Assembly (NCBI GenBank): GCA_918797485.1
Contig: CAKKNE010000001.1
Location: 992,001 to 1,056,000, forward strand
Direction of reading: 5' to 3'
DNA from: Pelagomonas calceolata
Taxonomy: Eukaryota
Length of the DNA: 64,000 nucleotides
Position 1 is the first letter of the stretch; every line of letters begins with the position of its first letter. Position numbers and translations under genes: made by a program. Below are positions 6,189 to 44,695 of the stretch, one piece after another. The notes under the pieces are model-generated. The model was not told the DNA's origin, did no database searches, and saw nothing but the letters and a program-made list of their open reading frames with translations.

Positions 6189-8013
6189 TTAACTAGTACT
6201 ATTCGACGCGTTGCGCTGCTCGTCCAGATCCGCGCAGAGCGCAGGACTGATCAGCGGCCGCGCGGGCCGATCCTTCCGTCGAAACGCGAAGGCGGCGGCC
6301 CGCGACTCGTTCCACTTTTGCTGAAACGCGGCCCGCGCGACGGCGACGTCGTGGAACGTCGAGGCACCCGTGCCGCGAGGTAGAAGCGTATCGCACGACG
6401 ACAGGATGAAGTTCTCGGCCAGGGCGTCCAATAAACCAGAACGTGATCCCCGGTCCGCGACGCGCCCCCTTTGACCGACTGAGAGTATATGCGTATCCGG
6501 TCGCTCCTCTAGGTGGTGCATCAGCATCCACTTCGTTTTCTTCGACTCGTGGTCGGCGGCGATGTAAACATTGGGATGTGGGATTCCATTTAGTGCTTGT
6601 TCGAGGTGGACCTTGTACCTATGTGCAAATCGACCAGTGAGTCCCTCGCCGTCGAGCATGCGTCGCGTCGATGGCGTGCAGGGTCATGGTTCCCCAGTGG
6701 ACGCGCCGCCGCCGCAGCAACAATTGATTTATGCACTACCTTGTACTTCAAGTTCTCCGTCTGTTGTTTCCCGTCGCCCGGAAGGTTATCTGCGCGTCTC
6801 AGATGCATTCCCACGTCGCACTTTATGTTTTTGTCGCCGAGTGCCTTGTGCACCCTAGATACGATCGAGGCGCGGGCGTCTCCCAACAACCAGCTCATCA
6901 ATCCACCAAACTCGGCCCACGGGTTGCCCGCTTTCGGGTCGAGGCCCCACGCCCTCCGCAGGTTCTTGTTGCACGTCAACGCCCAGCCCCAATAAAAAAA
7001 GCCGTACGTGCACAGGTAGGGGTCCTCCTTGCCTGTGCGGAGTCAACCAGTGAGACCTCCACGCCATCGAGCAGATGCAGTTACCGGGATAAGCGCCTAA
7101 AAATTTGATTTCCACACAGCTCCTCGCGCCAATCCGGACCTAGTTTGTGGGTACGCAGGTGGTCCGCCGTCTTCCGATCGTCCTCTTCCCCAATAGCCCA
7201 CCGTTTCAGTGGCTTAGCGTGGCGCTTGATGTCGTCTCTACACCGAGTGATCGCGGCATGCGCATGACCTGTGCATAAATCAACCAGTGAGTCGGGCGCG
7301 CCCGATAATTCTTCATCAAGTCCTTTCTCGGCGAGAACGCGGTCGCACAGCCTGAATCGAGCGGCGAGAGACCACACCGCCACGCCGTCGAGCAGGCATC
7401 GCGTCGATGGCGTGGAGGCCATGATTCAGCCGTGACGGACGCGCCGCGACAATTTGATTTATGCACTGGGTATGACTCCCGACGCCCCACTGCGCCCTCG
7501 TTTCGTTCTCCACAAATAGGTCGTTGATCGACGTCGGGTCGCAGTCGCCGTGGTTCGTGTGTCTGCCTGTGTGGAAATCAACCAGTGCGTCGGGTACTGC
7601 ATCGCCACGCCATCGAGCAGGCGTCGCGTCGATGGCGTGGAGGACAACGAACGCGCCGTAAAATTTTGATTTCCACACAGGTATCTACAATCCGTGTGCG
7701 GCCAGAGCACGATGAGCGATCGCCCCGTCGCCATCGCGAGCGCGAGCGTTGACGTGACGATGTTGATGCGGTTGCCCAATCCATAGTCGTCGGCGAAGGC
7801 GATGAGGAACTTACCGTTCTCCTTGCGCTCACGCCGCTGCGCCGTCGACCAATCGCTGAGCGCCGGCCCCCAAACGCCGCCGCTGCGATCCATTCCCGCG
7901 AGGAAACGCTGCTTGAGTAGGGCGAGGTGCGCGTTGTTCACCGCTTCGCCGCCAACCATCGTCTTGGCTGCCCGGGCCGTGCCGGCCAGCAGCAGGGCGA
8001 GGCTTAGCTGCAT
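6189..8013 (-). CDS. Fucosyltransferase-like protein (GT-B), ~423 aa; exons 8013-7689, 7566-7477, 7268-7128, 7032-6747, 6618-6189
   Basis: Signal peptide; GLGNRI, VGMHLRR, VYIAAD and ENFILSSCD...STF fucosyltransferase motifs. Removing four introners gives an uninterrupted 1272-nt frame. Confidence 0.85.
6619..6738 (-). mobile_element. Introner family A copy (intron 6619-6746, GT-AG)
   Basis: Perfect 8-bp TSD CCTTGTAC (6611-6618, 6739-6746); degenerate TIRs CTATGTGCAAATCGA...TTGATTTATGCACTA. Confidence 0.92.
7033..7119 (-). mobile_element. Introner family A copy, short (intron 7033-7127, GC-AG)
   Basis: TSD CTCCTTGC/CTCCTCGC; TIRs CTGTGCGGAGTCAA...TTGATTTCCACACAG; splicing gives DWR-KEDPYLC. 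Confidence 0.9.
7269..7468 (-). mobile_element. Introner family A copy, 200-bp long form (intron 7269-7476, GT-AG)
   Basis: TIRs CTGTGCATAAATCAA...TTGATTTATGCACTG (14/15); TSD CGCATGAC/GGTATGAC; colinear with 43925-44126. Confidence 0.92.
7567..7680 (-). mobile_element. Introner family A copy (intron 7567-7688, GT-AG)
   Basis: Perfect TIR CTGTGTGGAAATCAA...TTGATTTCCACACAG; TSD GTGTCTGC/GTATCTAC; internal 12-bp hairpin 7605-7616/7629-7640. Confidence 0.93.
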
Positions 8014-8239
8014 AGGAGATGCATTGCTAGCATGCCCATAATTGGGCTGCCTCTACGACCTGCCGCTGGCTACCGCACGTAGAGCAGGAGCAATGCTGCT
8101 TAAGGGAAGTACGTTACGGTCCTCAAAGCCACCCAAAGCCACCGATGCGCCTCAGACAGCACGCGCAACCCAAAAAATTGCGGGCGTCAGGGCGGGTTTT
8201 GCCAGGTCGCGTCGAACAACAACAGTACTAACTACACAT

Positions 8240-9637
8240 TTATGTCAAAGAAGAAGCGTGCGCCCGGATCGCCGCGAGCGCCTGCGGCAGGGCCGGGAAG
8301 ACTGCCGCTACGGATGCGCCCTCGCGGAGCAGGCCGCCCGGCGCGCCGCCGTCGATCACGGCCGGCGTCGGCGCTTCTGCGAGCTCCGCTGCGCAGGCGA
8401 CGCCGTGATGCGACGACGTCACGAGCACGGCGAGAATGCCGGCTCGGCACGCGGCGATCATATCAGTCCTTGCATCTCCCACCAGGACGGCGCGGTCGCG
8501 GTCGGCATCTCCCAGGGCGAGATTCAAAAGATCCGGCGCCGGCTTCAGCGCCGGTCCGTCAAGGCCCGTCGCGACAAATATGTCGTCAACAGGGACCTCC
8601 CTCCGGAGCGACGCGTGTAGCTTGTCGAGCGTCTTTGCCGACAATAGGCCTTTTTTCCTCGCGTTCTGATTCGTGACCACCACACACGCGTGCCCGTCCT
8701 CTTTGAGGGCACGAACGGCGTCTGAGACTCCTGGCAGCAATTCGAATTGTTCCGCGCGCACGACTCCCGGGCTGCCCACGTCTTTGTTGAGCACACCGTC
8801 CCGGTCCAATAACACGGTCCATGGCCGCGGCACCGCGTCTGTTTGCTCGAAGCCGCCGTAGGCATCAGTCGCATCGGCGCCGTCAGTGGTCGCATCAAAG
8901 CCACCGTAGTCGTCCTCCGCGTCGCTCGCCGTCACGCCAGTGTATTGCTCCCACTCGGAACGCCGCTCCGCCGCATCAGCAAGCGCCCATCCTCGTTCGC
9001 GCGCATTAAAACTCGACCACCCGCGCACCTCGTCGTCGGCGAGAAAACACCCGATACACACCGTTCCATCCATAAAGGACGGATTGCGCCGGCAGATGCG
9101 GTTGCAGGGAGACCTCTGCGCGGGTGCCGCCGCTGACACGCCGACGAGCAGCAGCACGCGGCGAGCAGCGTCGAGCAGCAGCGCCGCGCCGGCGAGCGCG
9201 GCGAGCAGCGCGACGACGGGATGCAGTGGCTGTCGTCGCGTCGGCGACGGGCTTCGTGCGGGCGCGGGCGGCGCCCTGCGCTTCTTGGCGGGCGTCCGCG
9301 AGGGCCGCTTCCTCTTCGCCTCGCGCGCCGCGGCCGGGAGCAGGTGCCAGGGCGTGTACCCGCTATTCTTGCGCGCCGAGCGGCGCGAGTCCGCGCGGCG
9401 GTGGGCCGGGCCCATTTACTCGTCCGGTCGCGGCTGGTTGTAGTACGCGAGCGTGCTGCTGATCGCAAAGATTACGAAACCGACGTCGAGGCTCCGCAGC
9501 ACGCGAGTCTTGGGTCTCGGCACAGCTGCAAATAACGAGGCATACGCATGGATTGTGGCTGCGCTTGCGCAAGCAACGCCCCAGCTAAGTGGCCTGGAGA
9601 CCTCTGGCGTACTCAAGGCTTTCTCTAGAGCATCCAT
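8240..9637 (-). CDS. DUF1289-like Cys domain plus HAD-IIIA phosphatase (GmhB/histidinol-phosphatase-like); 5' structure uncertain (possible intron 9363-9419)
   Basis: SPCNRICR...CIGCF...EVRGW; LLDRDGVLN, VVTNQ, KPAP and VLVGD HAD motifs. A 57-nt GT-AG intron would join ORF 9416-9637 in frame. Confidence 0.7.
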
Positions 9638-9825
9638 GCGCTCATATGCCAGCTTTTTGGCTTGCTGTCCATGCTAGTGCCCATATGCAGCTAGCCAACA
9701 AAAATTAATCATCCCCAGATCCTGACAAACATTTAACTGCCTGACGCCTGATCGTCCAGAGCCACGCAGGACCACTTCGGGACCCGCAGCCCTCCCAAGA
9801 GACGCCACCGCTGCCCGCGGCACGC

Positions 9826-10833
9826 ATGTGGAACAACTACTTCGAGGAGCAAAGGTCGGGCAGCCCCCGGGCGGAACCGACGAGCCCGCCGCCGCAGCAC
9901 TGCCCCGGCTGCGGCCAGCGCCTCGACGTCTGCGCCTGCGCGCCGTCGCAAGACAGCTACGCCGCGCCCCGCCACGAGGCCGTCAAGACCCCCGACCAGC
10001 ACTACTCGGAGTCGTTGCGGGCGGACCTGCACACGAAGCCGCGGCGCGCGCCGTCGCCGGCGTCGCGTGCGCGCTTCGAGGCGGCTTCTGTCGAACTCAA
10101 CAGTGAATTGAGGGGCGCGGCCGCCGCCATCGACCGCATCCGCACGCCGCCGAAGCGGCCGTCGCCCCAAGGTTCCGTGACGTCGGAGACGTCGCGACAA
10201 AAGAAAACGAGGAAGCCGCCTTTACCAAGGCGTTTGGACGGCCGCATCGTCGGCGCCCGGGCGAGCCCGGTCCGGCGGGCGCCGAGCCCGGCGCCCGTCG
10301 CGCGCGTGCCCGTACCACGGCCCGCGGCGCCCGTGCCGCTGCGACCCGTCCGGACGTGGGACCACAGCGCCTGGGCGGCGGCCGTATTAGTCGTCTTGAT
10401 CACGCTGAGCCTGCACTACGCGCCGGCTTATAGGAATATCGTCGATCAATATATGGGCATTTCGCGCGAGGGCGGCAACGCGTCGGCTTTACTGTACCTC
10501 CTGCCGCTCGCGCTGCTGATTGTCTACGACGCCGCGCACAACCCGCTCCACCGCTTCTTCCCGTTTCCGGACCGATGGGCGAACTACGTGCTGCGCGTCG
10601 CGGGCGGCTACGGCATCGTCCAGGTCCTGGCCCAGGACTTGGGGCTGAAGACGGGCGCCGTCCAGCGCGACCTCGTCCAGGCGGAGGGGGTCCAGTTCCT
10701 GCTCCTGTGGGGCGGCGCCTTCGCCGTGACAGGTCATAGATCAGAGGGCCTCGTGGCGGCGCTGTTGTACTTCGTCCTCAAGCACCACGTGAGCGCCGGC
10801 GAGACGAGTAGCGTGTGCTTCGAGGGCGTCTGA
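9826..10833 (+). CDS. Hypothetical membrane protein
   Basis: 335-aa ORF with low-complexity N-terminus and several hydrophobic C-terminal segments. Confidence 0.65.
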   Translation: MWNNYFEEQRSGSPRAEPTSPPPQHCPGCGQRLDVCACAPSQDSYAAPRHEAVKTPDQHYSESLRADLHTKPRRAPSPASRARFEAASVELNSELRGAAAAIDRIRTPPKRPSPQGSVTSETSRQKKTRKPPLPRRLDGRIVGARASPVRRAPSPAPVARVPVPRPAAPVPLRPVRTWDHSAWAAAVLVVLITLSLHYAPAYRNIVDQYMGISREGGNASALLYLLPLALLIVYDAAHNPLHRFFPFPDRWANYVLRVAGGYGIVQVLAQDLGLKTGAVQRDLVQAEGVQFLLLWGGAFAVTGHRSEGLVAALLYFVLKHHVSAGETSSVCFEGV

Positions 10834-11190
10834 CGCGTACTAAGGAGCTCTTGTTGGTCCTTGGTCCTTGCGCGTCCGGGGCGTCTCCGCGGTGTTGGAA
10901 CGAGGAACTTGCGACTTGGTACTTGCCGGTGCGGGACTGCTCGATTCGCAAGCGTGGTCCCGGCCAGGATAACGGTGCCGGGAGAAGCGTGCGCTCCGAC
11001 CCACGCTAGTAGGTAATAAGCGAAACCGCCGCTAGTGGCCATCGTCCCAGCGCCATCGACGCGAGCGCCGAGCGGGGCAGCCCCTCAGCCGTGCGGCCCG
11101 TCCCCACGCGTAACGCGGACCGCTCGACGCCGGCGCCGCGCCGCAGAACGCGCCGCCGCGCGCCAGCCAGACCAGAGACAGGCAGCAGCC

Positions 11191-12777
11191 ATGGACATGG
11201 AGGAGGAGCGCAACCCCTTCACGCTGCCCTCCGATGAGGAGGTCTTCAAGATGCGCGACGAGGAGAAGCGGCGGAAGAAGGAGTACCGGGAGACGCAGTC
11301 GAAGCTGAAAGTCTGGGAAAAAACGACGCGCGGGAAGTTGCCGACCGGCGCTGAAAGGCTGCGGCAGCTCATCGGGGAGGAGGCCGCGGCGAAGCCCAAG
11401 ACGCGGAAGGCCAAGGTCAAGGGCGAAGGTCAACTCGCGAAACAACCGGACGCGCTGGAACGGCGCGGGGAGCGCGAGTGCATGGCCGAGTTTCTCGCGA
11501 AGAAGAAAGAAATGTTTTATACACAACTCTCACTAGATGTGAAGCGCGAGGAGATCCAGAAGCTCCAGGACAAGGCGACGCAGAAGGAGGAAGCACTTAG
11601 GCGTAGTGAGCAGAAGCTCGAGGAGGATGCCATAAGGTTCGACACGTTCCTCAAGGAAAACGACAAGCGCGCCCACGACGCCGTCAAGGAGGCCGAGGCG
11701 GCGACCAAGAAGAAGAATGATAAAGTGCAGGAGATTAAACGACTGAACCAGCAACTACAAGCCGTTTCCAGCGAGATGTCCAAACAAAGAGAAGCTTTAG
11801 ATGACTGTCTTAAATACAGAGAGTTCCTCGACGGATTGACGCCGGAGGTCCACTTCGAGGAGAACAAGAAGCTGAAACGAGAAAGGCAGGAAGCGCGGCG
11901 GCAACGTAGAATCGCGAAGCGCGTCGAGGCCGAGGAGGCGCGGCGGCGAGACGACTACGAGCATGAATTAGCGGCGGCCCAAGCGGCGGCATCGTCACCT
12001 AAAAGGAAAGGCAAGAAGAATAAGGTGGCTCCGGAATCTCCCAAAGTGAAGCCTCCTGAGGATGTCGATCCATCAATGTTCGACGACGAGCCCCTTACCA
12101 GCAGTGACGAGGAGTGCCCCATGTACTTCAAACAACCAAGGCAACTACTGGACATCTTCGAGGAGCTCGAGGAGCAGAATTTGTTTCTCATCCAGAACTG
12201 CCAGGAAACCGAACGCCAGGCCGAGGAGCTCAAGCAACAATTCGCGGATACTCAGACGGAGACCGATGCGAAGGCTGCCTCACAACGGAAGCAAATTCGC
12301 GAGCTCAACAAGGCCATCGACGAGGAGGAGGCGAAGACGGAGAAACTCGAGTTGAGGATGGCGTCGGCCGGGACGGATTCACAACAAGCGGAGCTGCTGC
12401 GGAAATTGAATGATACGACTGCAAGAGTCTATGAGCAGTGCGGCTTCGGCGACGGCGGCGGTCAGACTCTGACCATGCTCGCTGATTTGGAAGCGAGACT
12501 GGAGCAATTATTGGATCATGTGGAAACGTTACCTCCAGATTATGTCGCGAAGGCAGAAAAGTACAAGGAAAAGAAGCGGCGCGAGCGGAATCGCATCGAG
12601 GCCCAGAAGGTCGCCGACGCGGAGCGCGAAGAGAAGAATCGGAAGTCGGTGGAGAGGAGTATGCAGCCCCCGAAGAAGCGGACGGGCCGCATGGTCATGC
12701 ACCGCTCTAGGCCTCCTAGAAAAAAGGTCGACGTCGAGGTCGACGAGGTCAACGACGACGACAAGTACCTGACGTGA
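11191..12777 (+). CDS. CFAP100: Cilia- and flagella-associated protein 100-like (CCDC37/DUF4200)
   Basis: NPFTLPSDEEVF, KKKEMFYTQLSLDVKREEI, LEEDAIRFDTFLKEND, MYFKQPRQLLDIFEELEEQNLFLIQNCQ. Confidence 0.85.
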   Translation: MDMEEERNPFTLPSDEEVFKMRDEEKRRKKEYRETQSKLKVWEKTTRGKLPTGAERLRQLIGEEAAAKPKTRKAKVKGEGQLAKQPDALERRGERECMAEFLAKKKEMFYTQLSLDVKREEIQKLQDKATQKEEALRRSEQKLEEDAIRFDTFLKENDKRAHDAVKEAEAATKKKNDKVQEIKRLNQQLQAVSSEMSKQREALDDCLKYREFLDGLTPEVHFEENKKLKRERQEARRQRRIAKRVEAEEARRRDDYEHELAAAQAAASSPKRKGKKNKVAPESPKVKPPEDVDPSMFDDEPLTSSDEECPMYFKQPRQLLDIFEELEEQNLFLIQNCQETERQAEELKQQFADTQTETDAKAASQRKQIRELNKAIDEEEAKTEKLELRMASAGTDSQQAELLRKLNDTTARVYEQCGFGDGGGQTLTMLADLEARLEQLLDHVETLPPDYVAKAEKYKEKKRRERNRIEAQKVADAEREEKNRKSVERSMQPPKKRTGRMVMHRSRPPRKKVDVEVDEVNDDDKYLT

Positions 12778-12959
12778 GTAACTTGGCCTTAGTCTTCTCG
12801 TCGACGGCGTCTGGGAGCCGCGCGGAGTATCTGCCGCGTGGAGTATCTGCCGCATGGTGTGCGTATTGGCCGCGCCTGGAGGCCAGCAATATGTCTTTTA
12901 CGGTGCTAGGACTAGTGGGCGGGGCCCCTGCCCAGGGCTGGGGGCAAGCCAAAATTTGC

Positions 12960-12982
12960 GCTAGTGTCTTACGCCCGCTAGC
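12960..12982 (+). promoter_or_regulatory. Upstream double-CTAG motif copy (GCTAGTGTCTTACGCCCGCTAGC)
   Basis: Consensus match about 90 bp upstream of ATG 13074. Confidence 0.6.
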
Positions 12983-13073
12983 GTGCATTTGTGCGCATGG
13001 CAATTTTCGTGTCGTACGTGGCCGTACAGACACCTTCGGGCCCGATTCATCGCACATCAGCTGCCTGGGCTAC

Positions 13074-14399
13074 ATGCGACGAGCCGTGGCTGTGCTTGCC
13101 TTCAGTTGCTCCACTGCTCTCCACATCAGACCTCTGCGCCAGCGCAGCAGTGCACCAAAAAACGACAGCGGCGCGCCGGCGTTGCGAAGAACTCGCAGCA
13201 CCATTGCGCTCGCGCTGCGCCGCGTTTCTGCGCCGATCAAGTCTGCAATCAGCGCCGCTGCAGTTGCTGTGCTATCCGTGCTCACGGTCGGGGCGTTAAC
13301 CCTAACACCGCCGGACACCCTCGAGAAGGCATCGATGGCGCCGTTCGCCTGGCATTTGTTCTGGCGCCGCGTGACGCGGCCCGAAGCCGCTCAAGCCGAG
13401 GCGCGATTGTTAGACCTCGGCCTCGGCGCGGGACGGTGGCGCCGCAGCGACACCGCCGCGAGCTCGGCACCGGACGACTACGTTCATTCGGTCTCCATCG
13501 ACGGTACCGGCGATGCGACGCTCGTCATGGTCCACGGTTTGGCAAATGGTGGTGGCATCTTCACGCGCAACCTGAGGCCGCTCTCCGCCGCGTTCGCCAG
13601 AATACACGCCGTCGACTGGCGCGGCGCGGGCCTCTCGGGCCGGCCGACGTACGAGCCGGACGACCACGACTCCGCGCGCGACTTTTTGGTTGATGGACTC
13701 GAGGCCTGGCGGGCCAAGGAGGGAGTCGATCGTATGGTACTCCTGGGCCACTCAATGGGTGGCTTGATCTCCGCCCATTACGCGTCGCGTTACCCCGAGC
13801 GCGTGGACCACCTAGTGTTAGTAGGGCCGGCGGCCGTCCAAGCGAGGCCGCGCCGCGTCCAGCCCGGGGAATCAAGAATGTATGATTTAGCTGAGCAGCT
13901 GTGGAAGGACGGGTACACGCCGTCGGGCTTCCTGAACTTTTTAGGGCCCTGGGGCAAGCGGTTGGTTGAAAGATATGCGGTCCGGCGGTACGGTCTGGCG
14001 GACGAGGAATATAATGAGGCGTTAGCTGATTACATTTATGCGATCCAAAGCCTGGGTATTGGCTCGGCGGCCTCGATGAACCAGCTGCTCGCGCCGATCG
14101 CCCAGCCCAAGGTTCCCATCGCGCCTATTGTGGAGAAGCTGCCGATGCCCGTGACGTATATTTACGGTGAGCACGATTGGATGGATCCGCGAAGCGGCGT
14201 GGCCTCTGCGGCCCGATGCCGCGTCGACGGCGTTGCACGGGTGCTCCCGGGCGGCGGCCACTACATCTTCATCGACCAGCCCGAGTTGTTCGAAAACGCG
14301 TTGCTCGACCGAGTCGCGCCCGGCGCGCCTCATCGCGTGGCCGTCCGGCATCCGACCCCTGCAGGAGCGACGCCGGCCGGCGCGGCCTATTCTAAGTGA
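13074..14399 (+). CDS. Alpha/beta hydrolase, ABHD4/5 (CGI-58/CLD1)-like
   Basis: MVHG, VDWRGAGLSGRP, GHSMGG nucleophile motif, YGEHDWMD, GHYIFID (HX4D). Confidence 0.85.
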   Translation: MRRAVAVLAFSCSTALHIRPLRQRSSAPKNDSGAPALRRTRSTIALALRRVSAPIKSAISAAAVAVLSVLTVGALTLTPPDTLEKASMAPFAWHLFWRRVTRPEAAQAEARLLDLGLGAGRWRRSDTAASSAPDDYVHSVSIDGTGDATLVMVHGLANGGGIFTRNLRPLSAAFARIHAVDWRGAGLSGRPTYEPDDHDSARDFLVDGLEAWRAKEGVDRMVLLGHSMGGLISAHYASRYPERVDHLVLVGPAAVQARPRRVQPGESRMYDLAEQLWKDGYTPSGFLNFLGPWGKRLVERYAVRRYGLADEEYNEALADYIYAIQSLGIGSAASMNQLLAPIAQPKVPIAPIVEKLPMPVTYIYGEHDWMDPRSGVASAARCRVDGVARVLPGGGHYIFIDQPELFENALLDRVAPGAPHRVAVRHPTPAGATPAGAAYSK

Positions 14400-14427
14400 T
14401 TGTTGTACACAACTTACCACAGATCTA

Positions 14428-15624: not shown

Positions 15625-15763
15625 GGCTCACACAGCCGCACGGATGGAAACCGCGGCTGCTGCTGGCGCGGGCTCACACGGACGATCGTTTGCACTTGTT
15701 AGGCCGTGCTGGCTTCATTGCTTTGAGGTGTTTTGCTAACTTTGCTTTGCCTGCCTGCTTGCT

Positions 15764-15788
15764 CTAGAGTGTCTTACAGGACGCTAGC
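15764..15788 (+). promoter_or_regulatory. Upstream double-CTAG motif copy
   Basis: CTAGAGTGTCTTACAGGACGCTAGC, 140 bp upstream of start 15624(-). Confidence 0.6.
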
Positions 15789-15857
15789 GCGATTTTGAAT
15801 CAGCCGTCACACCTCGAATAAACATTCGTATTAAAAATATCCGTCCGGCGCGGCGCG

Positions 15858-28174: not shown

Positions 28175-29435
28175 ATGGAGGCCAAAGGATCAGAGGAAGA
28201 GGCCAAGGACGCCAAAGAAGAAGAACCCCCGTCGAAGGTCGTCATCGACCTGCTGAATTTTGCCATGAAAGTCGTCCACGAAGAAATGAGTGGATTTTTT
28301 GAGACACACTGCGTGCTCTGGGACTACAAGGAGGAGGACCTCAAAAAGATCACGGCCGGGGAAGGAGAAACCTTGGAGCAGCATGCGGTTTTTACCCAAT
28401 ACCTGGAACAGATCAACGAGCGGTTGGACGGGTTCGCGCGGACTGCCGGTTATGCGGACGCGCAAGGTGTTCTCACGGACGTGCAAAAAGCGGTAGACCA
28501 CGACAAGAAGCTCCGGGACCAGATGATGAAGGAGATGAACGCGCTCTTTGCGCAGATGCGGCTCGGGTTGGAGCAGCGCGACAAGGCGGCGGCCGGCGCC
28601 AAGGGGACCGAGGACGACGCCAAAGGTGATGATGATAGTACCGCCTCGGCCAAAACAGTAGAAGTCGATGAATCGGAAGCGAAGGAGTCCAAAGCAGTAC
28701 CAAAGAAGAAGAAACCTACAGGCAATGGCTTGATGCTCTTCAGTCAGCCGATCGGGCTCGAGTACTTGCTGGAGTCCGTGATGAATTTGGCGGAGTACGA
28801 GACGTTCCGGATGATGATGATCATGAAGGCTAGGTGCGATCTCGGCGTCCCGCAGCGCTGCGGTGCCTTCACGCCATCGACGCGACTCGTGTCCATCAGA
28901 CGAGGTCGTGGGTGGTTTCTTTTTCGAGTTTGAGGCCATTCGGACCGAGTCGAGCGACCGCGATGCTCCGCGCAGGGAAAGGAGGATGTACCGGCAGCTG
29001 GAGGAGCGCGGGAATAAAAGGCGACGTTTGCGAGACACGAGGAAAGCGGAGTTGACTGATGGCTGTTCTGGGGATGTTGTTCGCGAACAGTACTCGTTAC
29101 TGAAAGTTAGACTAGGCGAGATGACGCCGCAGCGGAAAGATTTACGGGACGAACTCGACAAGGGCATGGATGTGGATAGGTTCGACTTTGACAGTAGGAT
29201 AGCTGATCCGGAGAGTTATAAATATCCCATGGACTTCCTCTGCAAGGTGTCCTCACCTTCCGCCCAGGAGGAGCTCAAAGGTAGGAGGGAGGATTTGACG
29301 CAACAAAACGCGCCGCACTGCGACTGGCTCGAAGCGCTCCACGCGCACGTCGACGCGATCCACGACAACATCGAGGAGGTCATGCTGGCCGCGCGGAGAG
29401 GGGCTAATGCGGAGGCCAAGGGGGCGAAGGCATAA
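28175..29435 (+). CDS. BART (ARL2-binding)-like domain protein; exons 28175-28833, 28976-29435
   Basis: FFETHC...ETLEQHAVFTQY...LDGF and AEYETFRMMM BART-like motifs; splicing gives KAR-ERRM in frame. Confidence 0.75.
28834..28975 (+). mobile_element. Introner family B copy (GT-AG intron)
   Basis: GTGCGATCTCGGCGTCCCG...ACCGCGATGCTCCGCGCAG; contains the core ACGCCATCGACGCGAC. Confidence 0.87.
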
Positions 29436-31014: not shown

Positions 31015-31070
31015 AAGCGACGAATCCGCTGCGGTATGCCTCAGGAACATCTTTATGAAATAAAACATTA

Positions 31071-33568: not shown

Positions 33569-33670
33569 CTGATTTTTAGTCTCGTCAGGCACCACGCCAT
33601 CGAGCAGTCACAGTCACAGGGACAACGTCGCGTCGATGGCGTGGGGATGGAGCAGTTGTAGTCTCAAAAC
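33569..33670. repeat. Intergenic introner-core remnant between convergent stops
   Basis: 12-bp inverted repeat CCACGCCATCGA (33592-33603) / TCGATGGCGTGG (33633-33644), identical to the family A hairpin. Confidence 0.6.
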
Positions 33671-34708: not shown

Positions 34709-34732
34709 GCTAGTGTCTTACATTACGCTAGC
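34709..34732 (+). promoter_or_regulatory. Upstream double-CTAG motif copy (GCTAGTGTCTTACATTACGCTAGC)
   Basis: Between divergent starts 34537(-) and 34959(+). Confidence 0.65.
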
Positions 34733-34958
34733 AAACTAAGTGCCGCCGCGCAAAAGCGCCGCGCGCGACGCCAGACGAAGCGCTAGTACATCACAGCGAG
34801 CGCTGCGCGCCGCCAGCCAACGCCGTCGACGACTGGCAGGCGACGAGCCGCTACGAAACGCCACGTGCGAAGCTCGGTGCAGTAACGTCTTCTCCGCACG
34901 CATCTCATCGACTACGCGACGCGACGCCCGCAGCGCTCGAAAGCATCAGCAAACAAAA

Positions 34959-36428: not shown

Positions 36429-36435
36429 TGTGCAC

Positions 36436-36708
36436 TTAAGGAATTGCTTTATCGAGCTCCGCGCAGCGCCCCTTGAGCGCCCGGACGGCCTTGAGCCACT
36501 CGACGAGGCGCTCCCGCTCGCCCGCTTGGAACTCGACCTCGGCCAGGGACTCGGCGTCGAGGTCGAGCAACAGCTGGAGGTCGACCTCGTCGGCCTCGAA
36601 CATCTTGAGCGTCTTTTCGCTCAGGTCGATGCGCTTCAATTGGTTTCTCAAAGTCTCGTTGCGGCCGGCCGGCGCGGTCGCGGCGTCGTCCTCCCAGTTG
36701 TCAGCCAT
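36436..36708 (-). CDS. Small SAM-domain-like protein
   Basis: LKRIDLSE...FEADEVDLQLLLDLDAESLAEV...GERERL. Confidence 0.65.
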   Translation of the reverse strand: MADNWEDDAATAPAGRNETLRNQLKRIDLSEKTLKMFEADEVDLQLLLDLDAESLAEVEFQAGERERLVEWLKAVRALKGRCAELDKAIP

Positions 36709-36953
36709 AGTTGCGGATTAGAGGTCCGATGCGTTGTCCGTTTTCGCCACGGAGTTCTTCGCCACCAATGCTTGCGTGAGCGGACGCGGTCGCGGTACGC
36801 AAGTGCTGGCGAGGTGCCGCAACAAAGGGCTTCAGCGTCACCTACTGGGCGCAGCGCTGTGAGCGAGGGAAGAGCGCTTGAGAGTGATGCTCTGCGCGAG
36901 TTTGCAGTGCTCGGCGATGGCGTACAGGCAAAGACGCGCTTTGGTCAATCTCG

Positions 36954-36978
36954 AGCTAGCGGTCTGTAACACACTAGG
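36954..36978 (-). promoter_or_regulatory. Upstream double-CTAG motif copy (CCTAGTGTGTTACAGACCGCTAGCT)
   Basis: Between divergent starts 36708(-) and 37093(+). Confidence 0.65.
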
Positions 36979-37092
36979 AAGCTACAAGCTCGACTGCCGT
37001 GTTCCGCGTACACCACGCCTACGCACAATCTGACGCGCTGTAGTGCTCATTTGGACCTTCCAAGAGTCGCAGCGCAACTGGCCCGGTCCAAA

Positions 37093-38385
37093 ATGATGCG
37101 TACTGCGCTTAGAAGAGGCTTGCTCAGCGGCGCTCCCAGGACGCTGACGCCGCGGCGAGCGCCGCTCGTCCGCGCCTACCGACCACCCTCAACAAGCTTC
37201 ACGAGAGCACCACCGGCGCGAAGAAGCCTCTCGCTCGCGCTCCCCAAAGCGGCCGCGCCACCCGCGGCCGTCGCCGGCGACAGGGCCGTCGCGTACTGGT
37301 TGTTCGGCTGCGGCGGGCTCGTGGCGGGCATGGTGTCCGTTGGTGGATTAACGAGACTAACCAGATCCGGCCTGAGCATGACGGACTGGAAGCTGCAAGG
37401 AGGTTTGCCACCTATGAACAGGGCTGACTGGGAGAGGGAATTTGCCCGCTACAAGCTCTACCCGGAGTGGCAACAAAGACAATCAATGACTCTTGAGGAA
37501 TTCAAGTACATTTATGCGTGGGAGTACGGTCATCGCATGCTCGGGAGGGTTGTGGGACTGGCTTTTGGCTTGCCCTTGGCCTACTTTTGGTCAAGAGGTC
37601 GGTTGACGCCGTGGCTGAAACCTCGCGCGATGGCGTTATTAGGATTGGGCGGCGCCCAAGGTTTAATCGGCTGGTGGATGGTGAGGTCGGGACTTAACAA
37701 AGATCTCCTCCCAGAGCGCCAAAAACAAGACGTCAGGGTGTCGCCGTACAGACTGGCGACGCACCTGACCATGGCCTTCATTACTTATTCGGGATTGGTC
37801 TGGTGCGGTTTGGAGCAGCTGGGAGGTCAAAGAGCGGTTTCAGAAGGTGTAAAACATGCGGCCAAACTCACACCAATCGCGCGAGGCGCCGCCTGTTTGA
37901 CCTTGGTCACAGCAATCTCCGGAGCCTTCGTCGCCGGCAACGACGCGGGCATGGCGTTTAATGTGTGGCCGTACATGGTCGACGATCGGGACGTCGGTGG
38001 AGAGGCGACCTTCGTGCCGCCCGACTTGTTGGAATTGCAACCGCTGTGGCGCAACATGTTCGAGAACACGGCTTGCGTCCAGTTCGACCATAGGATGTTG
38101 GCTTATGGTACCGCGCTGAGCGGCACGGGCCTCTTCGCTCTGGCTCGGTCCGGGGCTTGGCATGCTCTACCAATTGTCACGCGGCGCTTCGTCGCGGCGG
38201 GGGCTTTGGCTGTGGTCGGCCAGGCTTCGTTGGGTGTCGCTACCTTGCTGTATGTGGTCCCGATCGAGCTCGCCGCGGCGCACCAGCTTGGTGCTATTGG
38301 TTTACTGACCTGCGCGCTCGGCTCGGCGCATAGTCTCGCGCGGGCGGCGGCGGTTCCTGCTGTCGTCGTGGCGGCGGCTTTGTAA
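37093..38385 (+). CDS. COX15: Heme A synthase
   Basis: GGLTRLTRSGLSMTDW, WEYGHRMLGR, GWWMVRSGL, VSPYRLATHL, QFDHR, HQ. Confidence 0.95.
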   Translation: MMRTALRRGLLSGAPRTLTPRRAPLVRAYRPPSTSFTRAPPARRSLSLALPKAAAPPAAVAGDRAVAYWLFGCGGLVAGMVSVGGLTRLTRSGLSMTDWKLQGGLPPMNRADWEREFARYKLYPEWQQRQSMTLEEFKYIYAWEYGHRMLGRVVGLAFGLPLAYFWSRGRLTPWLKPRAMALLGLGGAQGLIGWWMVRSGLNKDLLPERQKQDVRVSPYRLATHLTMAFITYSGLVWCGLEQLGGQRAVSEGVKHAAKLTPIARGAACLTLVTAISGAFVAGNDAGMAFNVWPYMVDDRDVGGEATFVPPDLLELQPLWRNMFENTACVQFDHRMLAYGTALSGTGLFALARSGAWHALPIVTRRFVAAGALAVVGQASLGVATLLYVVPIELAAAHQLGAIGLLTCALGSAHSLARAAAVPAVVVAAAL

Positions 38386-38734
38386 TCTTGATTCTTGTTT
38401 TATCTTTCCTCGCGCGGCGCGGCTTTGGTTCGGGTGGGACGCGTTCTTCTTTTCCAGGGTGCGAGGCGGTCTCGTTGAGGTTGCTCGCGAGCCGTGTGGA
38501 GTGCTTTTGCGGGGTTAGTCTTGTTTTGGAGCCATCAGCCGAAAAACCCGCACCAAACGGAAAGCGAGGTGTTTCCGCGCTGCTACGGACAGGACAAGGC
38601 TCGAGGAGAGCTCTAGGACGCCTTCGGACATCGAAACAAGCGCGGACGTACACCTTCAATCGACGCAGAGCAGCAAGGGCGAGGCCTAAAGCACCGCTAC
38701 AGCCGCTGGCACGCAAGGCGTGTCGGTAGACAAG

Positions 38735-39472
38735 ATGATGAGGCGAGCGGCCGTTGCGCTGCTTTGCACGGGCGCCGCCGCGTTGATGGCGCCCCCGGCG
38801 AGGCCTGCGAGGGCAACAGCGCTAGCTGCAAGCGCGACGGCCGACGTACCCGTCAAGACCTTCGATGGAGGCGACGCGGGGACAGCTACGTTGAACCTGA
38901 AGGTGACCAAGGGCGAGAAGGACATGTACGTCGTCCACCGCAAGTACGTGCTGGAGCGGCGCAACGCGCGAGCCGGCACGGCGTCCACCAAAACGAGAAG
39001 CGAAGTACGCGGCGGCGGCCGCAAGCCCTTCAAGCAAAAGGGCACGGGCCGGGCCCGCCAGGGCTCGATCCGGTCTCCCTTAAAAGTCGGCGGCGGCGTC
39101 TCCTTCGGCCCGAAGCCCAAGGACTGGGCGAACAAGAAGATGAACCGCAAGGAGGCGGAGCTCGCCATCGGCATCGCGATCCAGAACAAAGCTTCTAGAG
39201 TGACCGTCGTCGACTCGATCGCGGGGAAGTTCTCGGAGCCCAAAACGAAGAACGTCGTGTCCATGCTCAGCGGTCTGGGCTTAGATGCGGACGCCAAAAC
39301 GGTGCTCGTCTACGACACGGAGGACGCGACCTTCGAGAAGAGCGCCGCGAACCTGCCGAACTGCGAGCTCCGCCTCCAGGACGAGATCACGGTCTCGGAC
39401 ATGCTCTGGGCGGACCAGGTCCTCATGACGCAGCCGGCCTTCGACTGGGTCAACGAGCGCTACGGGGAGTAG
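38735..39472 (+). CDS. rpl4: Plastid 50S ribosomal protein L4, nucleus-encoded
   Basis: GTASTKTRSEVRGGGRKPFKQKGTGRARQGSIRSPL..GGGVSFGPKP; bipartite signal/transit peptide. Confidence 0.93.
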   Translation: MMRRAAVALLCTGAAALMAPPARPARATALAASATADVPVKTFDGGDAGTATLNLKVTKGEKDMYVVHRKYVLERRNARAGTASTKTRSEVRGGGRKPFKQKGTGRARQGSIRSPLKVGGGVSFGPKPKDWANKKMNRKEAELAIGIAIQNKASRVTVVDSIAGKFSEPKTKNVVSMLSGLGLDADAKTVLVYDTEDATFEKSAANLPNCELRLQDEITVSDMLWADQVLMTQPAFDWVNERYGE

Positions 39473-39551
39473 ATTCGGAGTCGTTCCCCGCTGTATTAAT
39501 ACGTTACCTCTCTTACACACTAGTCGCGTCGGCGGCGCCGCGCGGGAGCCG

Positions 39552-40587
39552 TCATTGGCCGCGCGCGAACTCGTCCTTCTTCCGCGTGTCCTTGCCCTGG
39601 CGGCGCTTCCCCTTCTTCTTTCGCTGCGCGGTCCGCGCCTGCGTGGAACTCAAATGTCAGGCACCCAACGTCTGCTCGATGGCGTGTAGGTTCACGAAGG
39701 ACACAGGTCCGCGCGTCGAGGCCCCGCCGCCGCCGCCGCCGGTAGTCGTCGTCGGCCTTTGTCAGAGCCCGGAGGCGCTTCGACGTCGCCGCGACCGCCG
39801 CCGCGCCGGCGTCGGGCAGCGCGCCGATGACCGCCGCGACCGCGCGCGCCGCCGCGGCCTCCCCTAGTAAACTGTTGAACGGCCGCGCCGCCGGCGCCTT
39901 CTTGCGGGCGGGCCGCGGTAGGCTCCGAGCCGGCCGGGAGAACGCGCGGAAGACGTCGGGCTGCTCCGCATCGTAGGCGAGCGCGCGGCGGCCGTCTACG
40001 GTCGCGCCGGCGAACCGGACGCTTCTCGCCATTCGTAGGACGCGCCGCCGCCGCGCCGCGAGCAAGCGGGGCCGCGCGGCGTCCTTCTGGGCGCGGACAC
40101 CAACGGACAAGGATACTGCGCGCCGCAGCGCCCTGCACGTCGCCGCCGCGGCGCCCGCCCGATAGGCCGAGCACCAGTCGAGCACGCGCGCGACGACGCC
40201 CTCCGGGACCGGTGCGAGAACCGAGTCGCTGTTGTATTCCGCCTTCGGCACGACGCCGTCGAGCCGCGCGGCGACCGTCGGCACTTGCTCGAGCGGCGGC
40301 TCCGTCGTCGCGTCGGTGGCGGACGGGCTCCAGGGCGCGAGGGTCTCGGCGTGGCTCCACTTGCAGCGGCGGTTCGGGCAGTCGCCATTTCGAAAGTACG
40401 CCGCGCAGAGCTTATTGCCTTGCCCTGCGACCCAGACGCTCGCGTCGGGGTCCTTGAGGAAGATGGCGTTCAGGATGTCCAGGGGGTCGACGAGCTGGCC
40501 CTTGGCTTTTGCTGCCGCGGCGTCCCGTTTCGCCGCTTTTTGTTTTGCTGCTCGTTCTACTCGGCGCTCCCAGTTGCCTTTGACCAT
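39552..40587 (-). CDS. CCCH zinc-finger protein; exons 40587-39715, 39638-39552
   Basis: CAAYFRNGDCPNRRCKWSH; introner removal gives ...GLD-ARTAQRKKKGKRR...FARGQ*. Confidence 0.8.
39639..39706 (-). mobile_element. Introner family A copy, minimal 68 bp (intron 39639-39714, GC-AG)
   Basis: Perfect TSD GTCCGCGC (39631-39638, 39707-39714); ends CTGCGTGGAACTCAA...ACACAG; core CTGCTCGATGGCGTG. Confidence 0.88.
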
Positions 40588-41256
40588 CGCGTGCTCCTGT
40601 TTTTAAAGTTTTTCCGAGGCGTTTCGCAAGCGCTCGCACCGCTGCGCCGTCTCAAAGCAATGCTCTCTGTTAATGCTCTCAGTACTCCAGCGCGCGAGCA
40701 ACGCAGCGAGCGATGACAGCGTTCACGCCGCGGCTCAATTGGCGCTGTTACAGATCGCCGGTGATGCCTGTAGCGCTTGCCCGCCCACGCACGGCGCTCC
40801 AGCCCAGAGCAGCTGCTGAGGCTGCAGCAGGACGGGTTTTTCACGAACCTCGGGCTCCATTCGTCTTGAAACGACCGGGCCAGTCGTGCAGGCGCAGTAG
40901 AAAGGAGAAGGACGGCTCTTGGCGTCATAACTGAGGTCAATTGCGGCTCCGCAGACCGAGAGCGCTTATTGCCCTTCGGCGCGGCGCTATAAAACACAGA
41001 GCAGCGCCGGTGCCCTTGGCCGAACACCATTCGCTGTCGGTTCGCGCTGTGCGCGAGAAACAAGGCTGAACCGAGGCGAAACCACAGACTGCAAAGTTCT
41101 TCAGCAGCCGGCCACAGCCGAACGACACCCGCGCGCGACCCAGCAACGCGCGGCGCGGAGACGTGGGTCGCGCCAGCAGGCCCACAGCCGAAAAGCAACA
41201 CCCGCGGCGCCCGGTAACGCGCGCCGCGGAGACGCCCACGAAGCGGCGCGGCCTCC

Positions 41257-42748
41257 ATGGACATCCGCCCCGGCCAGAGCCCCGGCTCCATCTTCGGCAA
41301 CGCCGAGAACAATCCCTTAGTCCAGTCGTTCGACGAGGAGTCCCCGGACAGCGTCCTGAACCCCGACGGCTCCGTCGGCTACCTAGCAGCAAGGCTGTCG
41401 AAGGAGCGCGGCGCGACTGCCGAGCGTTTAAAGACACTCACAGCCATGGAGCAGCGCGGAGATATCGATAGCAAGGAAAAAGGAGATCTCAAGGACGCTT
41501 TGTTAGCACAAAAGTCCGACCTCGAGACGGCGCTCGACCGAGTAGCTAATAGAGAAGCGCCCTTCCCGACGGCGCGGTCGCCGCCCGCGGCTCGTTCGTT
41601 AGAACATGAGCTCCAACATATGATGTCATTGGACGACGTCGCCTCGACGTCCTTCGGCGGGCGGAACCAGACGCTCGCCTCGCCTCGAGGGGCCTCACTC
41701 TTGGATAATATGCGCCAGCCCGTCTCCGGCTACTCGTTCCACGACGAAAGCGTCGCGCAAGCCGCGGCCATCGCCGCGGCGGAGATGCGATCGTCGGGCG
41801 GCAACCTCATGGGCTCCTACGACGGCGCGTCGTCCTTTTTGGGCGCGCGCAACAGCTTCCAGGGGCGACACTCGCCGCCGTTCGGCGGTGGAGGCGTACC
41901 GAGGCGCCTCTCCGCGCCGGGCGCACGGGCGCACCGCCCGTCGCCGCCGGCCGAGTTCGCGCCGTTCGCGGCTCTAATAGACCAGGCTGATGATATGCCT
42001 GGGTTCGAGTTCGAGATGGAGAATAGCCTGGGCACGACGCCGACGCCGAACGTGGGCTCGCCGATCCGGCCGCGCGCCGAGGTGCAGCGCTTGAGAAGGC
42101 AGGGGTCCATCGCCGACCGAGCGCGGGCCGCGGCGCCTAGGCCTGCGCCTGCTCCTCGACCGCCACCGGCGCCGCCGGTCACGTCTCCTGGGAAGCATAG
42201 AGGCTGCTCGACGACGATCGACCTGAAGGACTTGCCGCCTTTAGATAGCTTTCCTACCCAAGAAGCGCCGTCCTACGACTCCGTGAGCAACGGTGTGGAA
42301 ATCAACCCGTGTGTCGGGTGCACTCGGCGATGACGTGGCCGCGCTGGCGTCGCGTCGATGGCGTGGAGGTCGACGCGACGAACGCGCCGTAAATTTGATT
42401 TCCGCACAGGTGATCAACTTCAACCGCACGAAGGGCCGCGGCGCGCCGCACAGCTGTGTGATGTGCGGGAAGCGCGGCCGGCCTCCCACGAAAGGCAAGG
42501 ACCCGCCGGCCGACGACGACCGCGTCGTCATCCCGACGCAGAACAAGGACGTCTGCAAGGTCTGCGACACGGTGACCTGGAAGCACAACCCCACGGGCGC
42601 CTACTTCAAGTGGTGCAAGGGCTGCAAGCGCTTCCACGAGATCCACGCCTTCGCGGGCAAGCTCAAGGCCTCGAAGTGCGACGACTCGCGCGCCCGCGGC
42701 CGCGCGGGCTACATGCGCCGCAAGGAGGACGGCGAGAACGCGTCCTAG
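41257..42748 (+). CDS. Protein with C-terminal SBP-like Cys/His zinc-binding domain; exons 41257-42282, 42410-42748
   Basis: CVMCG...VCKVC...KWCKGCKRFHEIHAF...KASKC...RRK; splicing gives YDS-VINFNR. Confidence 0.78.
42291..42409 (+). mobile_element. Introner family A copy (intron 42283-42409, GT-AG)
   Basis: TSD GTGAGCAA/GTGATCAA; TIRs CGGTGTGGAAATCAA...TTGATTTCCGCACAG. Confidence 0.92.
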
Positions 42749-42910
42749 TCCTCTGGCCTCCCCCCTGACATTTAGAAGAATAATGCTGCTTATTATTGGT
42801 ATCCTTTTCTTTTTGGCGCGTCGGCGGCGGCGGCGTCTGGACGTCTGGGAACTTGTCTGGGAAGTCGTCTAAGTCGTCTGGGATTACGAAACGAAACACA
42901 GACAACGTAT

Positions 42911-44695
42911 TTACGCGTAGCAAAGAGGTTTGATTGCTTCGTGCCAGTCCCAGAGCATCGGGCGCTCCATCAAACCCTCGTCGTTTGCACGTGAGTTGTA
43001 ATTGTGCTTCAGGACCTCTAGATCTTCGCGCCCCGCCAGCCGCGCGCACTCTCTGAGGTCGTCGCCGATGGCATGCGCATACAGGGCGTTTTCCGGATAA
43101 GTACCATACGGCGCGATCCGCAGGTTCCGAGGCAGCGCTGACATGATGCGTTTGAGGTCCCAAGTTTCCGTCGGTTCATCCGCCTGGTCCCCCCATTCAG
43201 TCAGCTCGAGCGTCTCGAGGTGCGTCGCGGCCGCGGCCGCCTCGAGATGGCATATACCCTCCTCCGCCTGAGGGGTAGTGTGCGTGCAGCTATAGTGTCG
43301 GAGATTTGGAGCGGCGTCTATCCACGCCGAAAATGTGGCGGCAGTACAGTCGCTGTCAAAGATCAAGCCGGTGTGGATGTGTGTGAGCGCGTACGTGCGC
43401 CCCGGCGTTGGCATAGGCATGAAGTCAGCGCAGCCGAACGCCCAAAATATGCGCAGTTCCGCGCAGCGCTCGAGTACACGAGCGAAGGGTTCTCGTTCCT
43501 CCGCGCTACCGTCCCCGATACTGGATCCGTCGACCCGCAGCGCCCGCAGATCCCGGCAGTGCTCGCTCACGAGCCCCAGCAGTTCGAGAACGACCGCTTT
43601 CGAATATAGGGGAGACTTTTCCCCATTGTCACCCTGCCACTCAATGCGTAGGACACGGAGCCGCGAGACGCCGACGGCGCTGACACCGGCCACGTATGTT
43701 CGTGTCAACGCGTATCCCCCCTCGTCTTTTTCGGGTGGTGTTCGATCGACATACGCGAGCGCGACGACGCCGCGCCGGGCGTCCGGGCGCAGACGGACCG
43801 GTGCTTCGTTCCAGAAATCAATACAGAAATAGAAGTCCTGCAGGTCGAGGTAGGAGACCGGGGCCAACGCGTACGCAGCAATGCGCCGCAATACAATATG
43901 GTTGCCGGCGATCCACTTAATCACCTGTGTGGAAATCAAATTTTACGGCGCGTTCGTGCTGAATCATCGCGTCGTCCTCCACAGTATCGACACGACGCCT
44001 GCTCGATGGCGTGGCGATGCCGGTTCCTCGCCGCTCGACCGAGCCATGACGGCCGCCTCATTGCCGAGAAATGACTTAGTGAAGAATTGTCGGGTGCACC
44101 CGACGCACTGGTTGATTTCCACACAGTTAATCACGCTGCCTTTCCCGAGGCGGCGCTGGCGGCCCATGAGCAGCGCGTACAGCTCCGCGCGCGACTCGAA
44201 CCATCGATCGTTGTACGTCACCGCCGCGTCCCAGAGATGCCGCAGCGGTCGCGGAAGTGGGAAGAGATCTCCTCTGCGCACGTTTCGGGTCTTACTCTCG
44301 CCGTCGCACCGCACCCTCCACCAGCCATGATCTGGATGGTTCGCCGGGAGTGTGACGACGCCGGTGGTGTGTGCGCCCCCGCCTATTGCGATCCGGACTT
44401 TGTCTCCCTCGACCCATTCGTGCTTTCGGGTCCCGCCTACGACCGACGAAATCTTCCAACTGTCTCCTGAGGCCGACTCCTTCTTCGATTCGGGGAGCCG
44501 CTGGACGCTTCGCTCCGCCGCCAACACGCTCCCGCAGGGCTCGAACACGCTAGGTCGCGGCGAGCGGAGCGCGCAGTAGTCCATGACATTCTCGCGCTCG
44601 GCTGGGCCGAGATGACGGATGATCCTGAGATCCCAGTGCTTTGGTCGCTCCCATGGCGTCGTCGACGACTCCGACGGCGTCGCTTTGGTCCGCAT
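42911..44695 (-). CDS. Hypothetical protein with LRR/RNI-like C-terminal half; exons 44695-44135, 43924-42911
   Basis: Splicing joins GKGS-VIKWIAG in frame; CRDLRALRV, CAELRIF, APNLRHY and HLETLEL are LRR-like. Confidence 0.7.
43925..44126 (-). mobile_element. Introner family A copy, 202-bp long form (intron 43925-44134, GT-AG)
   Basis: Perfect 15-bp TIR CTGTGTGGAAATCAA and perfect TSD TTAATCAC (43917-43924, 44127-44134). Confidence 0.95.

What the first reader, a model, noticed from the sequence alone, without database searches (positions are those of the whole stretch)
6611..44134. Introner family A: seven TIR/8-bp-TSD mini-transposons that are cleanly spliceable introns
Seen: seven 68-202 bp elements (6619, 7033, 7269, 7567, 39639, 42291, 43925) end in CTGTGTGGAAATCAA-type TIRs and are flanked by 8-bp TSDs. 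Each TSD starts GT or GC on the host sense strand. Splicing from the upstream TSD copy to the terminal CAG/TAG removes the element plus one TSD and restores the host frame in all seven cases. Known: this TSD-co-option mechanism is described for introner elements in the pelagophyte Aureococcus, and 8-bp TSDs are typical of hAT elements. Inference: this is a recent, possibly ongoing intron-generating family; no transposase is in the window.
Basis: partly seen in the sequence, partly recalled or inferred. Interest (0 to 1): 0.85.

Follow-up and report, generated by a model that had tools for sequence, protein, structure and literature searches.

The report
Jumping-DNA introns in a marine alga
Seven short repeats in genes of the marine alga Pelagomonas calceolata are cut out of the RNA as introns, and wild relatives lack several of them, so they are likely small jumping elements that created new introns, a kind already catalogued for this species.

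Summary
All seven elements lie where stated. Removing each one with its upstream 8-bp target copy gives a GT/GC...AG intron.

Splicing: contigs of a putative RNA run skip E5, E6 and E7 exactly, while DNA contigs hold them. Transcriptome-derived proteins equal the predicted spliced products of gene A (E1-E4) and gene B (E5).

Insertion: wild metagenome DNA has empty sites for E1-E4. One contig carries a family copy with a perfect 8-bp duplication where the window has a single target.

Corrections: four of seven duplications have 1-2 mismatches, and E1, E2 and E5 have decayed ends. E3 and probably E5 are shared with diverged lineages. One transcript retains E1. 'Ongoing' is not shown and no transposase was found.

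The species is Pelagomonas calceolata. A 202-bp, 340-copy, hAT-labelled 'co-opt 5', carry 3'' introner family is already catalogued there (PMC12130899, Dataset S2). E7 is 202 bp, but I could not match sequences. Verdict: real, already known; the empty sites and age layering add modest value.

The parts
6619..6738 (-). E1, 120 bp; intron 6619-6746 (128 nt, GT...TAG); TSD copies 6611-6618 (stays in exon) and 6739-6746 (in intron), exact; ends partly decayed; retained in one transcript
   Evidence: empty in L054; spliced product equals P0097; retained product equals P0098
7033..7119 (-). E2, 87 bp; intron 7033-7127 (95 nt, GC...CAG); TSD 7025-7032 / 7120-7127, 1 mismatch
   Evidence: empty in 3 of 3 wild contigs, whose target starts GG rather than GT/GC
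7269..7468 (-). E3, 200 bp, near full length; intron 7269-7476 (208 nt, GT...CAG); TSD 7261-7268 / 7469-7476, 2 mismatches; older insertion shared with some wild lineages
   Evidence: empty in L054 and L055, 68-bp copy at the same site in L056; 7 of 55 homologous proteins run into E3-derived sequence at this site
7567..7680 (-). E4, 114 bp, perfect 15-bp TIRs; intron 7567-7688 (122 nt, GT...CAG); TSD 7559-7566 / 7681-7688, 2 mismatches
   Evidence: empty in 3 of 3 wild contigs
39639..39706 (-). E5, 68 bp, one TIR decayed; intron 39639-39714 (76 nt, GC...CAG); TSD 39631-39638 / 39707-39714, exact
   Evidence: skipped exactly by an X4 contig and present in an X3 DNA contig; spliced product equals P0116
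42291..42409 (+). E6, 119 bp; intron 42283-42409 (127 nt, GT...CAG); TSD 42283-42290 (in intron) / 42410-42417 (in exon), 1 mismatch
   Evidence: skipped exactly by an X4 contig; homologs align without a gap at the junction
43925..44126 (-). E7, 202 bp, full length, perfect TIRs; intron 43925-44134 (210 nt, GT...CAG); TSD 43917-43924 / 44127-44134, exact
   Evidence: skipped exactly by an X4 contig; both junctions present in X3 DNA contigs
6189..8013 (-). Host gene A, five exons, 423 aa; labelled by UniRef as GDP-fucose protein O-fucosyltransferase (label untested; no Pfam hit for close homolog P0002)
39552..40587 (-). Host gene B, 319 aa, no Pfam family
   Evidence: strand from X21 reads
41257..42748 (+). 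Host gene C, 454 aa, weak SBP-domain match in exon 2 (E 8e-4, below the curated cut-off)
42911..44695 (-). Host gene D, no Pfam family; start codon not verified
3275..3282 (+). Empty target site in the threonine dehydratase gene: one 8-bp copy here; duplicated around a 165-bp family element (GC...CAG geometry) in wild contig L054 35-199
   Evidence: gene identity

Best explanation
The seven elements are spliced out as GT/GC-AG introns that take their 5' splice site from the upstream 8-bp flanking repeat and their 3' AG from their own end, and they are most likely non-autonomous cut-and-paste transposons (introners) moved by a transposase encoded elsewhere. Shown: the anatomy; exact removal in RNA-derived sequence; empty sites in related wild DNA; a reciprocal filled site with a perfect 8-bp duplication; use of both element orientations (left end as acceptor in 6 of 9 copies, right end in E6 and E7, E5 unclear). 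Inferred: a staggered 8-bp cut duplicates the target; an end beginning CTG reads CAG on the other strand and supplies the acceptor; insertions into coding sequence survive only where the target begins GT or GC on the sense strand, because splicing then removes the element plus one copy and leaves the mRNA unchanged. After insertion the interior, the donor-side TIR and both TSD copies drift, so copies of different ages coexist. The transposase is probably hAT-type; none was found.
For:: X4 record 18 skips 39630-39705 and 42283-42409, and record 20 skips 43917-44126, with 0 other letters in the laid pieces; these cuts equal the predicted introns. X3 DNA contigs hold E5 whole, the right junction of E6 and both junctions of E7; spliced gene A is identical to P0097 (423 of 423 aa; NCBI, UniRef and MMETSP sources); spliced gene B is identical to P0116 (MMETSP complete transcript ORF). 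P0098 equals the product with E2-E4 removed and E1 kept, a partly spliced form. E4 empty in 3 of 3 wild contigs, E2 in 3 of 3, E3 in 2 of 3, E1 in 1 of 1 that reach it; L054 35-199 is a family copy with an exact 8-bp duplication where the window has one copy; the empty E3 target in L054 equals the intronic TSD copy of L056; summed X3 depth is about 500-2,400 in bins outside the elements and 1.1 million over E7; 76 X3 and 61 X11 contigs run on from the element end into unlike flanks whose consensus starts GT. The acceptor-side end begins CT in 9 of 9 copies, the donor-side end in only 5 of 9.
Against: No transposase: 0 of 140 window ORFs, and no hAT Pfam accession in the readable, cut part of the species' annotation table. 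X4 is only guessed to be RNA by the tool. The raw-read splice junctions of X21 were not among the 15 joints shown (225 hidden), so splicing efficiency is unmeasured. E1-E4 have no read-level test. E1 is retained in one transcript-derived protein. The MMETSP proteins and the X4 contigs may not be independent data. Only three wild DNA contigs were recovered.
Confidence: 0.92

Rival explanations
1. The elements spread through RNA, by reverse splicing of excised introns, and the flanking repeats and TIRs are by-products rather than marks of a DNA transposase.
For: No transposase was found. An RNA route has been proposed for fungal introners (10.1101/2022.06.06.494994, passage).
Against: The 8-bp duplication is site-specific and arises with the insertion (L054 against window 3275-3282). 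The conserved unit is the TIR-bounded element, not the intron, whose first 8 nt differ at every site. Both orientations occur. [quoted passage not shown]
Confidence: 0.03
2. The elements are not spliced; the element-free sequences come from strains or alleles that never had the insertions.
For: Wild lineages do have empty sites, X4 is only guessed to be RNA and is a different sample from X3, and E5 retention leaves an open frame.
Against: X4 pieces show 0 other letters over about 4.5 kb, while empty-site lineages differ at 13-17% of coding bases. P0098 is identical to the window product with E1 kept and E2-E4 removed. Retaining any of the six other elements breaks a long ORF.
Confidence: 0.02
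3. The introns are old and ancestral, and the empty sites in relatives are precise intron losses.
For: E3 and probably E5 are shared with diverged lineages. No rooted tree was built.
Against: Homologous repeats sit at unrelated sites, each with its own 8-bp duplication. A reciprocal filled site exists. Homologous proteins down to 63-70% identity, some on contigs of 17-70 kb, read across E4 and E3. The E2 target in relatives lacks a GT/GC start.
Confidence: 0.03

Closest known systems
Pelagomonas calceolata introner fam2 (PMC12130899, Dataset S2 row)
   Same: Same species; element length 202 bp (E7 is 202 bp); TIR DNA element labelled hAT; mechanism 'co-opt 5' carry 3''; GT and GC donors (281 and 42 of 340), AG acceptors.
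   Different: That row gives no TSD length. Shorter or older copies here may fall in other listed families (fam3, 5, 24, 39) or in none.
Putative introner elements of P. calceolata (PMC9481584 Supplementary Note 3; preprint 10.1101/2021.10.25.465678)
   Same: 956 putative IEs, intron-length peak near 210 bp (E7 210 nt, E3 208 nt), GT/GC donors, AG acceptor, conserved TIRs.
   Different: The passages I read report no TSD, empty sites or insertion ages. The logo figure is a picture and could not be read.
Aureococcus anophagefferens introners (Huff, Zilberman and Roy 2016; not held; known through citing passages)
   Same: [quoted passage not shown] Aureococcus fam1 is also listed as 'co-opt 5' carry 3''.
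   Different: Different genus; sequence relationship not tested. An 8-bp TSD in A. anophagefferens is recalled; one search shows 8 bp only for a different family, in Aureococcus sp.
hAT-superfamily non-autonomous elements (MITEs)
   Same: 8-bp TSD and short TIRs; 3 of 18 ends fit the YARNG terminal motif given in PMC3014272.
   Different: 14 of 18 ends begin CT, not YA. No cognate transposase was found.

Membership tests
Introner (TIR/TSD DNA-transposon-derived intron) | Repeated, homologous sequence at unrelated intron positions | tested here: met
   Alignment and pairwise BLAST; very high summed depth and many unlike flanks
Introner (TIR/TSD DNA-transposon-derived intron) | Removed from RNA with spliceosomal ends, mRNA unchanged | tested here: met
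   E5-E7 by contigs of a putative RNA run; E1-E5 by transcript-derived proteins; E1 retained in one
Introner (TIR/TSD DNA-transposon-derived intron) | Site-specific target duplication and empty orthologous sites | tested here: met
Introner (TIR/TSD DNA-transposon-derived intron) | Current mobility (new insertions within a culture or population) | not testable with these tools
   No genome held; only three wild contigs, 83-87% identical
P. calceolata introner fam2 (PMC12130899) | Same species, 202-bp TIR element, 5' site co-opted and 3' site carried | tested here: met
P. calceolata introner fam2 (PMC12130899) | Sequence identity to the published family consensus | not testable with these tools
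   TIR words absent from the 14 supplementary files and from the library full text
hAT superfamily | 8-bp TSD | tested here: met
hAT superfamily | Terminal motif YARNG | tested here: inconclusive
   3 of 18 ends fit, all donor-side; 14 begin CT, one begins CG
hAT superfamily | Cognate autonomous element with a hAT transposase | tested here: inconclusive
   None in the window; no hAT Pfam accession in the cut annotation table; genome not searchable

The most novel reading that the evidence does not exclude
The family caught in the act of becoming an introner. An ordinary hAT end (CAGTG, fitting YARNG) turns into a splice acceptor by one A-to-T change at TIR position 2 (CTGTG, read CAG on the other strand). 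The E1/E3 type keeps one unconverted end and can form introns in only one orientation, while the E4/E7 type has both ends converted and works in both. Wild Pelagomonas lineages differ in which sites are filled, so the order of these steps and the rate of intron gain could be read from ocean metagenomes.
Probability: 0.25. Interest if true: 0.55.

Novelty: already known. Interest (0 to 1): 0.3.

Why it matters
Where new spliceosomal introns come from is an old question, and TSD-co-opting introners are one of the accepted answers. This window is a clear worked example in an abundant ocean alga: filled and empty sites, a reciprocal insertion, and copies of several ages in one gene. The class, the mechanism and very probably this family are already in print. 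The added value is that intron presence differs among wild Pelagomonas lineages, which makes gain rates and selection on new introns measurable from existing metagenomes. My paper searches listed no such population study, but most subscription papers are not in the library.

Tried and rejected
No whole genome was held, so copy number and a search for an autonomous element could not be run. The summed depth is not a copy number.

The joint table was swamped by other copies of the repeat (15 shown, 225 hidden), so raw-read junction counts for E5-E7 were not seen. No read-level result exists for E1-E4.

Viral contigs: 53 single exact TIR matches. Four had a loose partner or core motif. L047 has no TSD (6 of 8 mismatches), and L002 and L031 lack the element interior; L037 was checked only for GC content. 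Rejected as chance.

Prokaryote genome contigs: one partial copy at a contig end, GC 0.64 (L057), read as algal contamination of a bin; not tested further.

A generic TSD+TIR+splice scan gave 13 candidates: E3, E4, E6, E7 and 9 others without the family TIR, which were not followed.

The idea that mismatches in the intronic TSD copy are all splice-improving changes was rejected as a rule. At E3 the empty site shows one change in each copy, and at E4 the GT is also in the empty sites. Only E6 (GTGAG) would fit, and that is untested.

Huff et al. 2016 is not held. PMC12130899 main text does not mention pelagophytes; the data are in its Dataset S2. A search for the Repbase name hATv gave nothing that I read. 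Four look-ups in earlier scan notes gave nothing on this genome or sequence.
Full report
Observation. The seven elements are in the sequence at the stated starts: E1 6619-6738, E2 7033-7119, E3 7269-7468, E4 7567-7680, E5 39639-39706, E6 42291-42409, E7 43925-44126. Each has an 8-bp flanking repeat, exact in 3 of 7 and with 1-2 mismatches in 4 of 7. The TIR pair is good in E3, E4, E6 and E7, degraded in E1 and E2, and one-sided in E5. The TIR words occur 9 times at one mismatch or fewer, against 0 in each of 30 simulated windows. The elements also share interior sequence. E3 and E7 are the long form and are 75% identical over 199 nt; the others look like internal deletions.

Splicing geometry. 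On the host sense strand the upstream repeat starts GT (5) or GC (2), and the element ends CAG (6) or TAG (1). Removing that repeat plus the element gives introns of 128, 95, 208, 122, 76, 127 and 210 nt and restores one long ORF in each of four genes. The E7 intron is a multiple of three and matters through its stop codons. Retaining E5 leaves an open 355-aa frame, so frame alone does not decide E5.

Splicing evidence. Contigs of run X4, which the tool guesses to be RNA, skip exactly the E5, E6 and E7 introns, with 0 other letters in the laid pieces. Contigs of the DNA-labelled run X3 hold E5 whole, the right junction of E6 and both junctions of E7. Stranded reads of X21 put gene B on the minus strand and gene C on the plus strand, as predicted. 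The predicted product of gene A, with E1-E4 removed, is identical to P0097, 423 of 423 residues, held by NCBI, UniRef and a transcriptome collection. The product of gene B is identical to the transcript-derived P0116. Homologs of gene C align without a gap at the E6 junction. Against 'cleanly': P0098, also transcript-derived, is identical to the product with E2-E4 removed and E1 kept. That shows partial retention of E1, and it also argues that the removals are splicing and not absent alleles. Splicing efficiency was not measured, because the raw-read junctions were hidden behind repeat-derived joints, and E1-E4 have no read-level test. These transcript sources may not be independent of each other.

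Insertion evidence. A metagenome scan with gene A returned 3 contigs, 83-87% identical to the window in coding DNA and with matching neighbouring genes. E4 and E2 are empty in 3 of 3, E1 in the 1 of 1 that reaches it, and E3 in 2 of 3; each empty site has one copy of the target. L056 holds a 68-bp copy of E3 at the same site. L054 holds a 165-bp family copy with an exact 8-bp duplication in the threonine dehydratase gene, where the window (3275-3282) has one copy. At E2 the relatives' target starts GG, so it could not have hosted this intron. That fits selection for GT/GC targets, though it is one site. In X3 the summed depth over E7 is about a thousandfold that of bins outside the elements, and 76 contigs leave the element end into unlike flanks whose consensus starts GT. 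This indicates many copies but is not a count.

Age. The copies are of mixed age. Of 55 gene A homologs, 7 run into E3-derived sequence at the E3 site, and those that reach E4, E2 or E1 with a recognisable junction read across them. Of the 13 gene B homologs (of 24) that reach the E5 site, 8 read across, 3 clearly and 1 possibly run into E5-like sequence, and 1 into other sequence. For these proteins I could not see the DNA, so 'across' may mean spliced or empty. Even E7 differs from most laid reads of other copies at 7 of the listed positions (50 rows hidden). Its closest match among the nine copies is the L054 element, 93% over 134 nt. Gain since the split of Pelagomonas lineages is supported; activity today is not shown.

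Mechanism. Most likely a non-autonomous cut-and-paste element is moved by a transposase from elsewhere and makes an 8-bp duplication (inferred). An end beginning CTG reads CAG on the other strand and is the acceptor: 9 of 9 acceptor-side ends begin CT, against 5 of 9 donor-side ends. The donor is whatever GT or GC starts the target. Both orientations occur. No transposase family was hit by 140 window ORFs of 150 aa or more, which cover 94% of the window. The readable part of the species' annotation table has no hAT Pfam accession and one Tc1-like gene (file cut). The hAT label is therefore plausible, not proven. The 8-bp TSD fits. The terminal motif YARNG (PMC3014272, passage) fits only 3 of 18 ends, all on the donor side of E1, E3 and the L056 copy. 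The CT ends depart from it at the base that creates the acceptor, which suggests a one-step route from hAT end to splice site. With nine copies this is a hypothesis; decay after insertion is the alternative.

Comparison with what is known. The window's proteins are identical or nearly so to proteins labelled Pelagomonas calceolata. PMC9481584 and its preprint (passages, and part 1 of 2 of the supplementary PDF with Note 3; figures unreadable) report 956 putative introner elements with GT/GC donors, AG acceptors, TIRs and an intron-length peak near 210 bp. PMC12130899 (passages and Dataset S2 rows) lists 11 families for the species. Its fam2 has 340 copies, a 202-bp element, a hAT label (with a RepBase blastn hit to hATv-2N1_EHux), and 'co-opt 5' carry 3''. 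E7 is 202 bp with that geometry. The consensus is not in the text I could search, so the match is by species, length and mechanism; I put it at about 85%. The Aureococcus precedent is cited through 10.1101/2020.10.14.339549, PMC7789003 and PMC11282704 (passages) and 10.1101/2022.06.06.494994 (passages); the original paper is not held. Supplements of the bioRxiv preprints were not seen and may list TIR or TSD details.

Verdict. Real, and correctly read in its core. Already known as a kind and very probably as a family. The empty sites, the reciprocal insertion and the age layering are useful confirmation and point to a population test. Interest 0.3.

Noticed in passing
window 4745-8200 against L054-L056: Gene A is inverted relative to its neighbours compared with three wild contigs, with breakpoints near 4745 and 8200; window 4750-6180 has no counterpart in L054.
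   Followed up: no
window 3770-3926: A probable GC-AG intron in the threonine dehydratase gene carries repeats of the motif found inside the elements; L054 and L055 have shorter GT versions at the same site, so it may be an older introner relic.
   Followed up: partly
window 47122-47360 (-): A candidate 239-nt GT-AG intron rich in the same interior motif, without the family TIR or an 8-bp repeat, would join the ion-channel ORF to the ankyrin ORF; possibly another introner family.
   Followed up: partly
window 59916-60326: A long inverted repeat (64-nt arms, 89% complementary) flanked by inverted copies of the interior motif; possibly another small element.
   Followed up: no
window 28866-28886, 33592-33652, 20339, 11051: Further isolated copies of the interior motif outside the seven elements, without TIRs.
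   Followed up: no
window 44126 (run X21): 5,232 poly(A) reads carry the element end followed by unlike flanks, so many family copies elsewhere are present unspliced in RNA (retained introns, pre-mRNA or UTR copies).
   Followed up: no
P0110, P0114 (gene A homologs): These carry E3-derived in-frame inserts of about 40 residues at the E3 site, so shortened E3 copies that are stop-free multiples of three exist in some lineages; they may be gene-calling read-through.
   Followed up: no
window 42537-42680 (run X21): About a quarter to a third of reads over exon 2 of gene C carry a linked set of other letters, suggesting an expressed paralog.
   Followed up: no
L057 2627-2675: A partial family copy at the end of a 64% GC contig in a bacterial metagenome bin, likely algal contamination.
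   Followed up: partly
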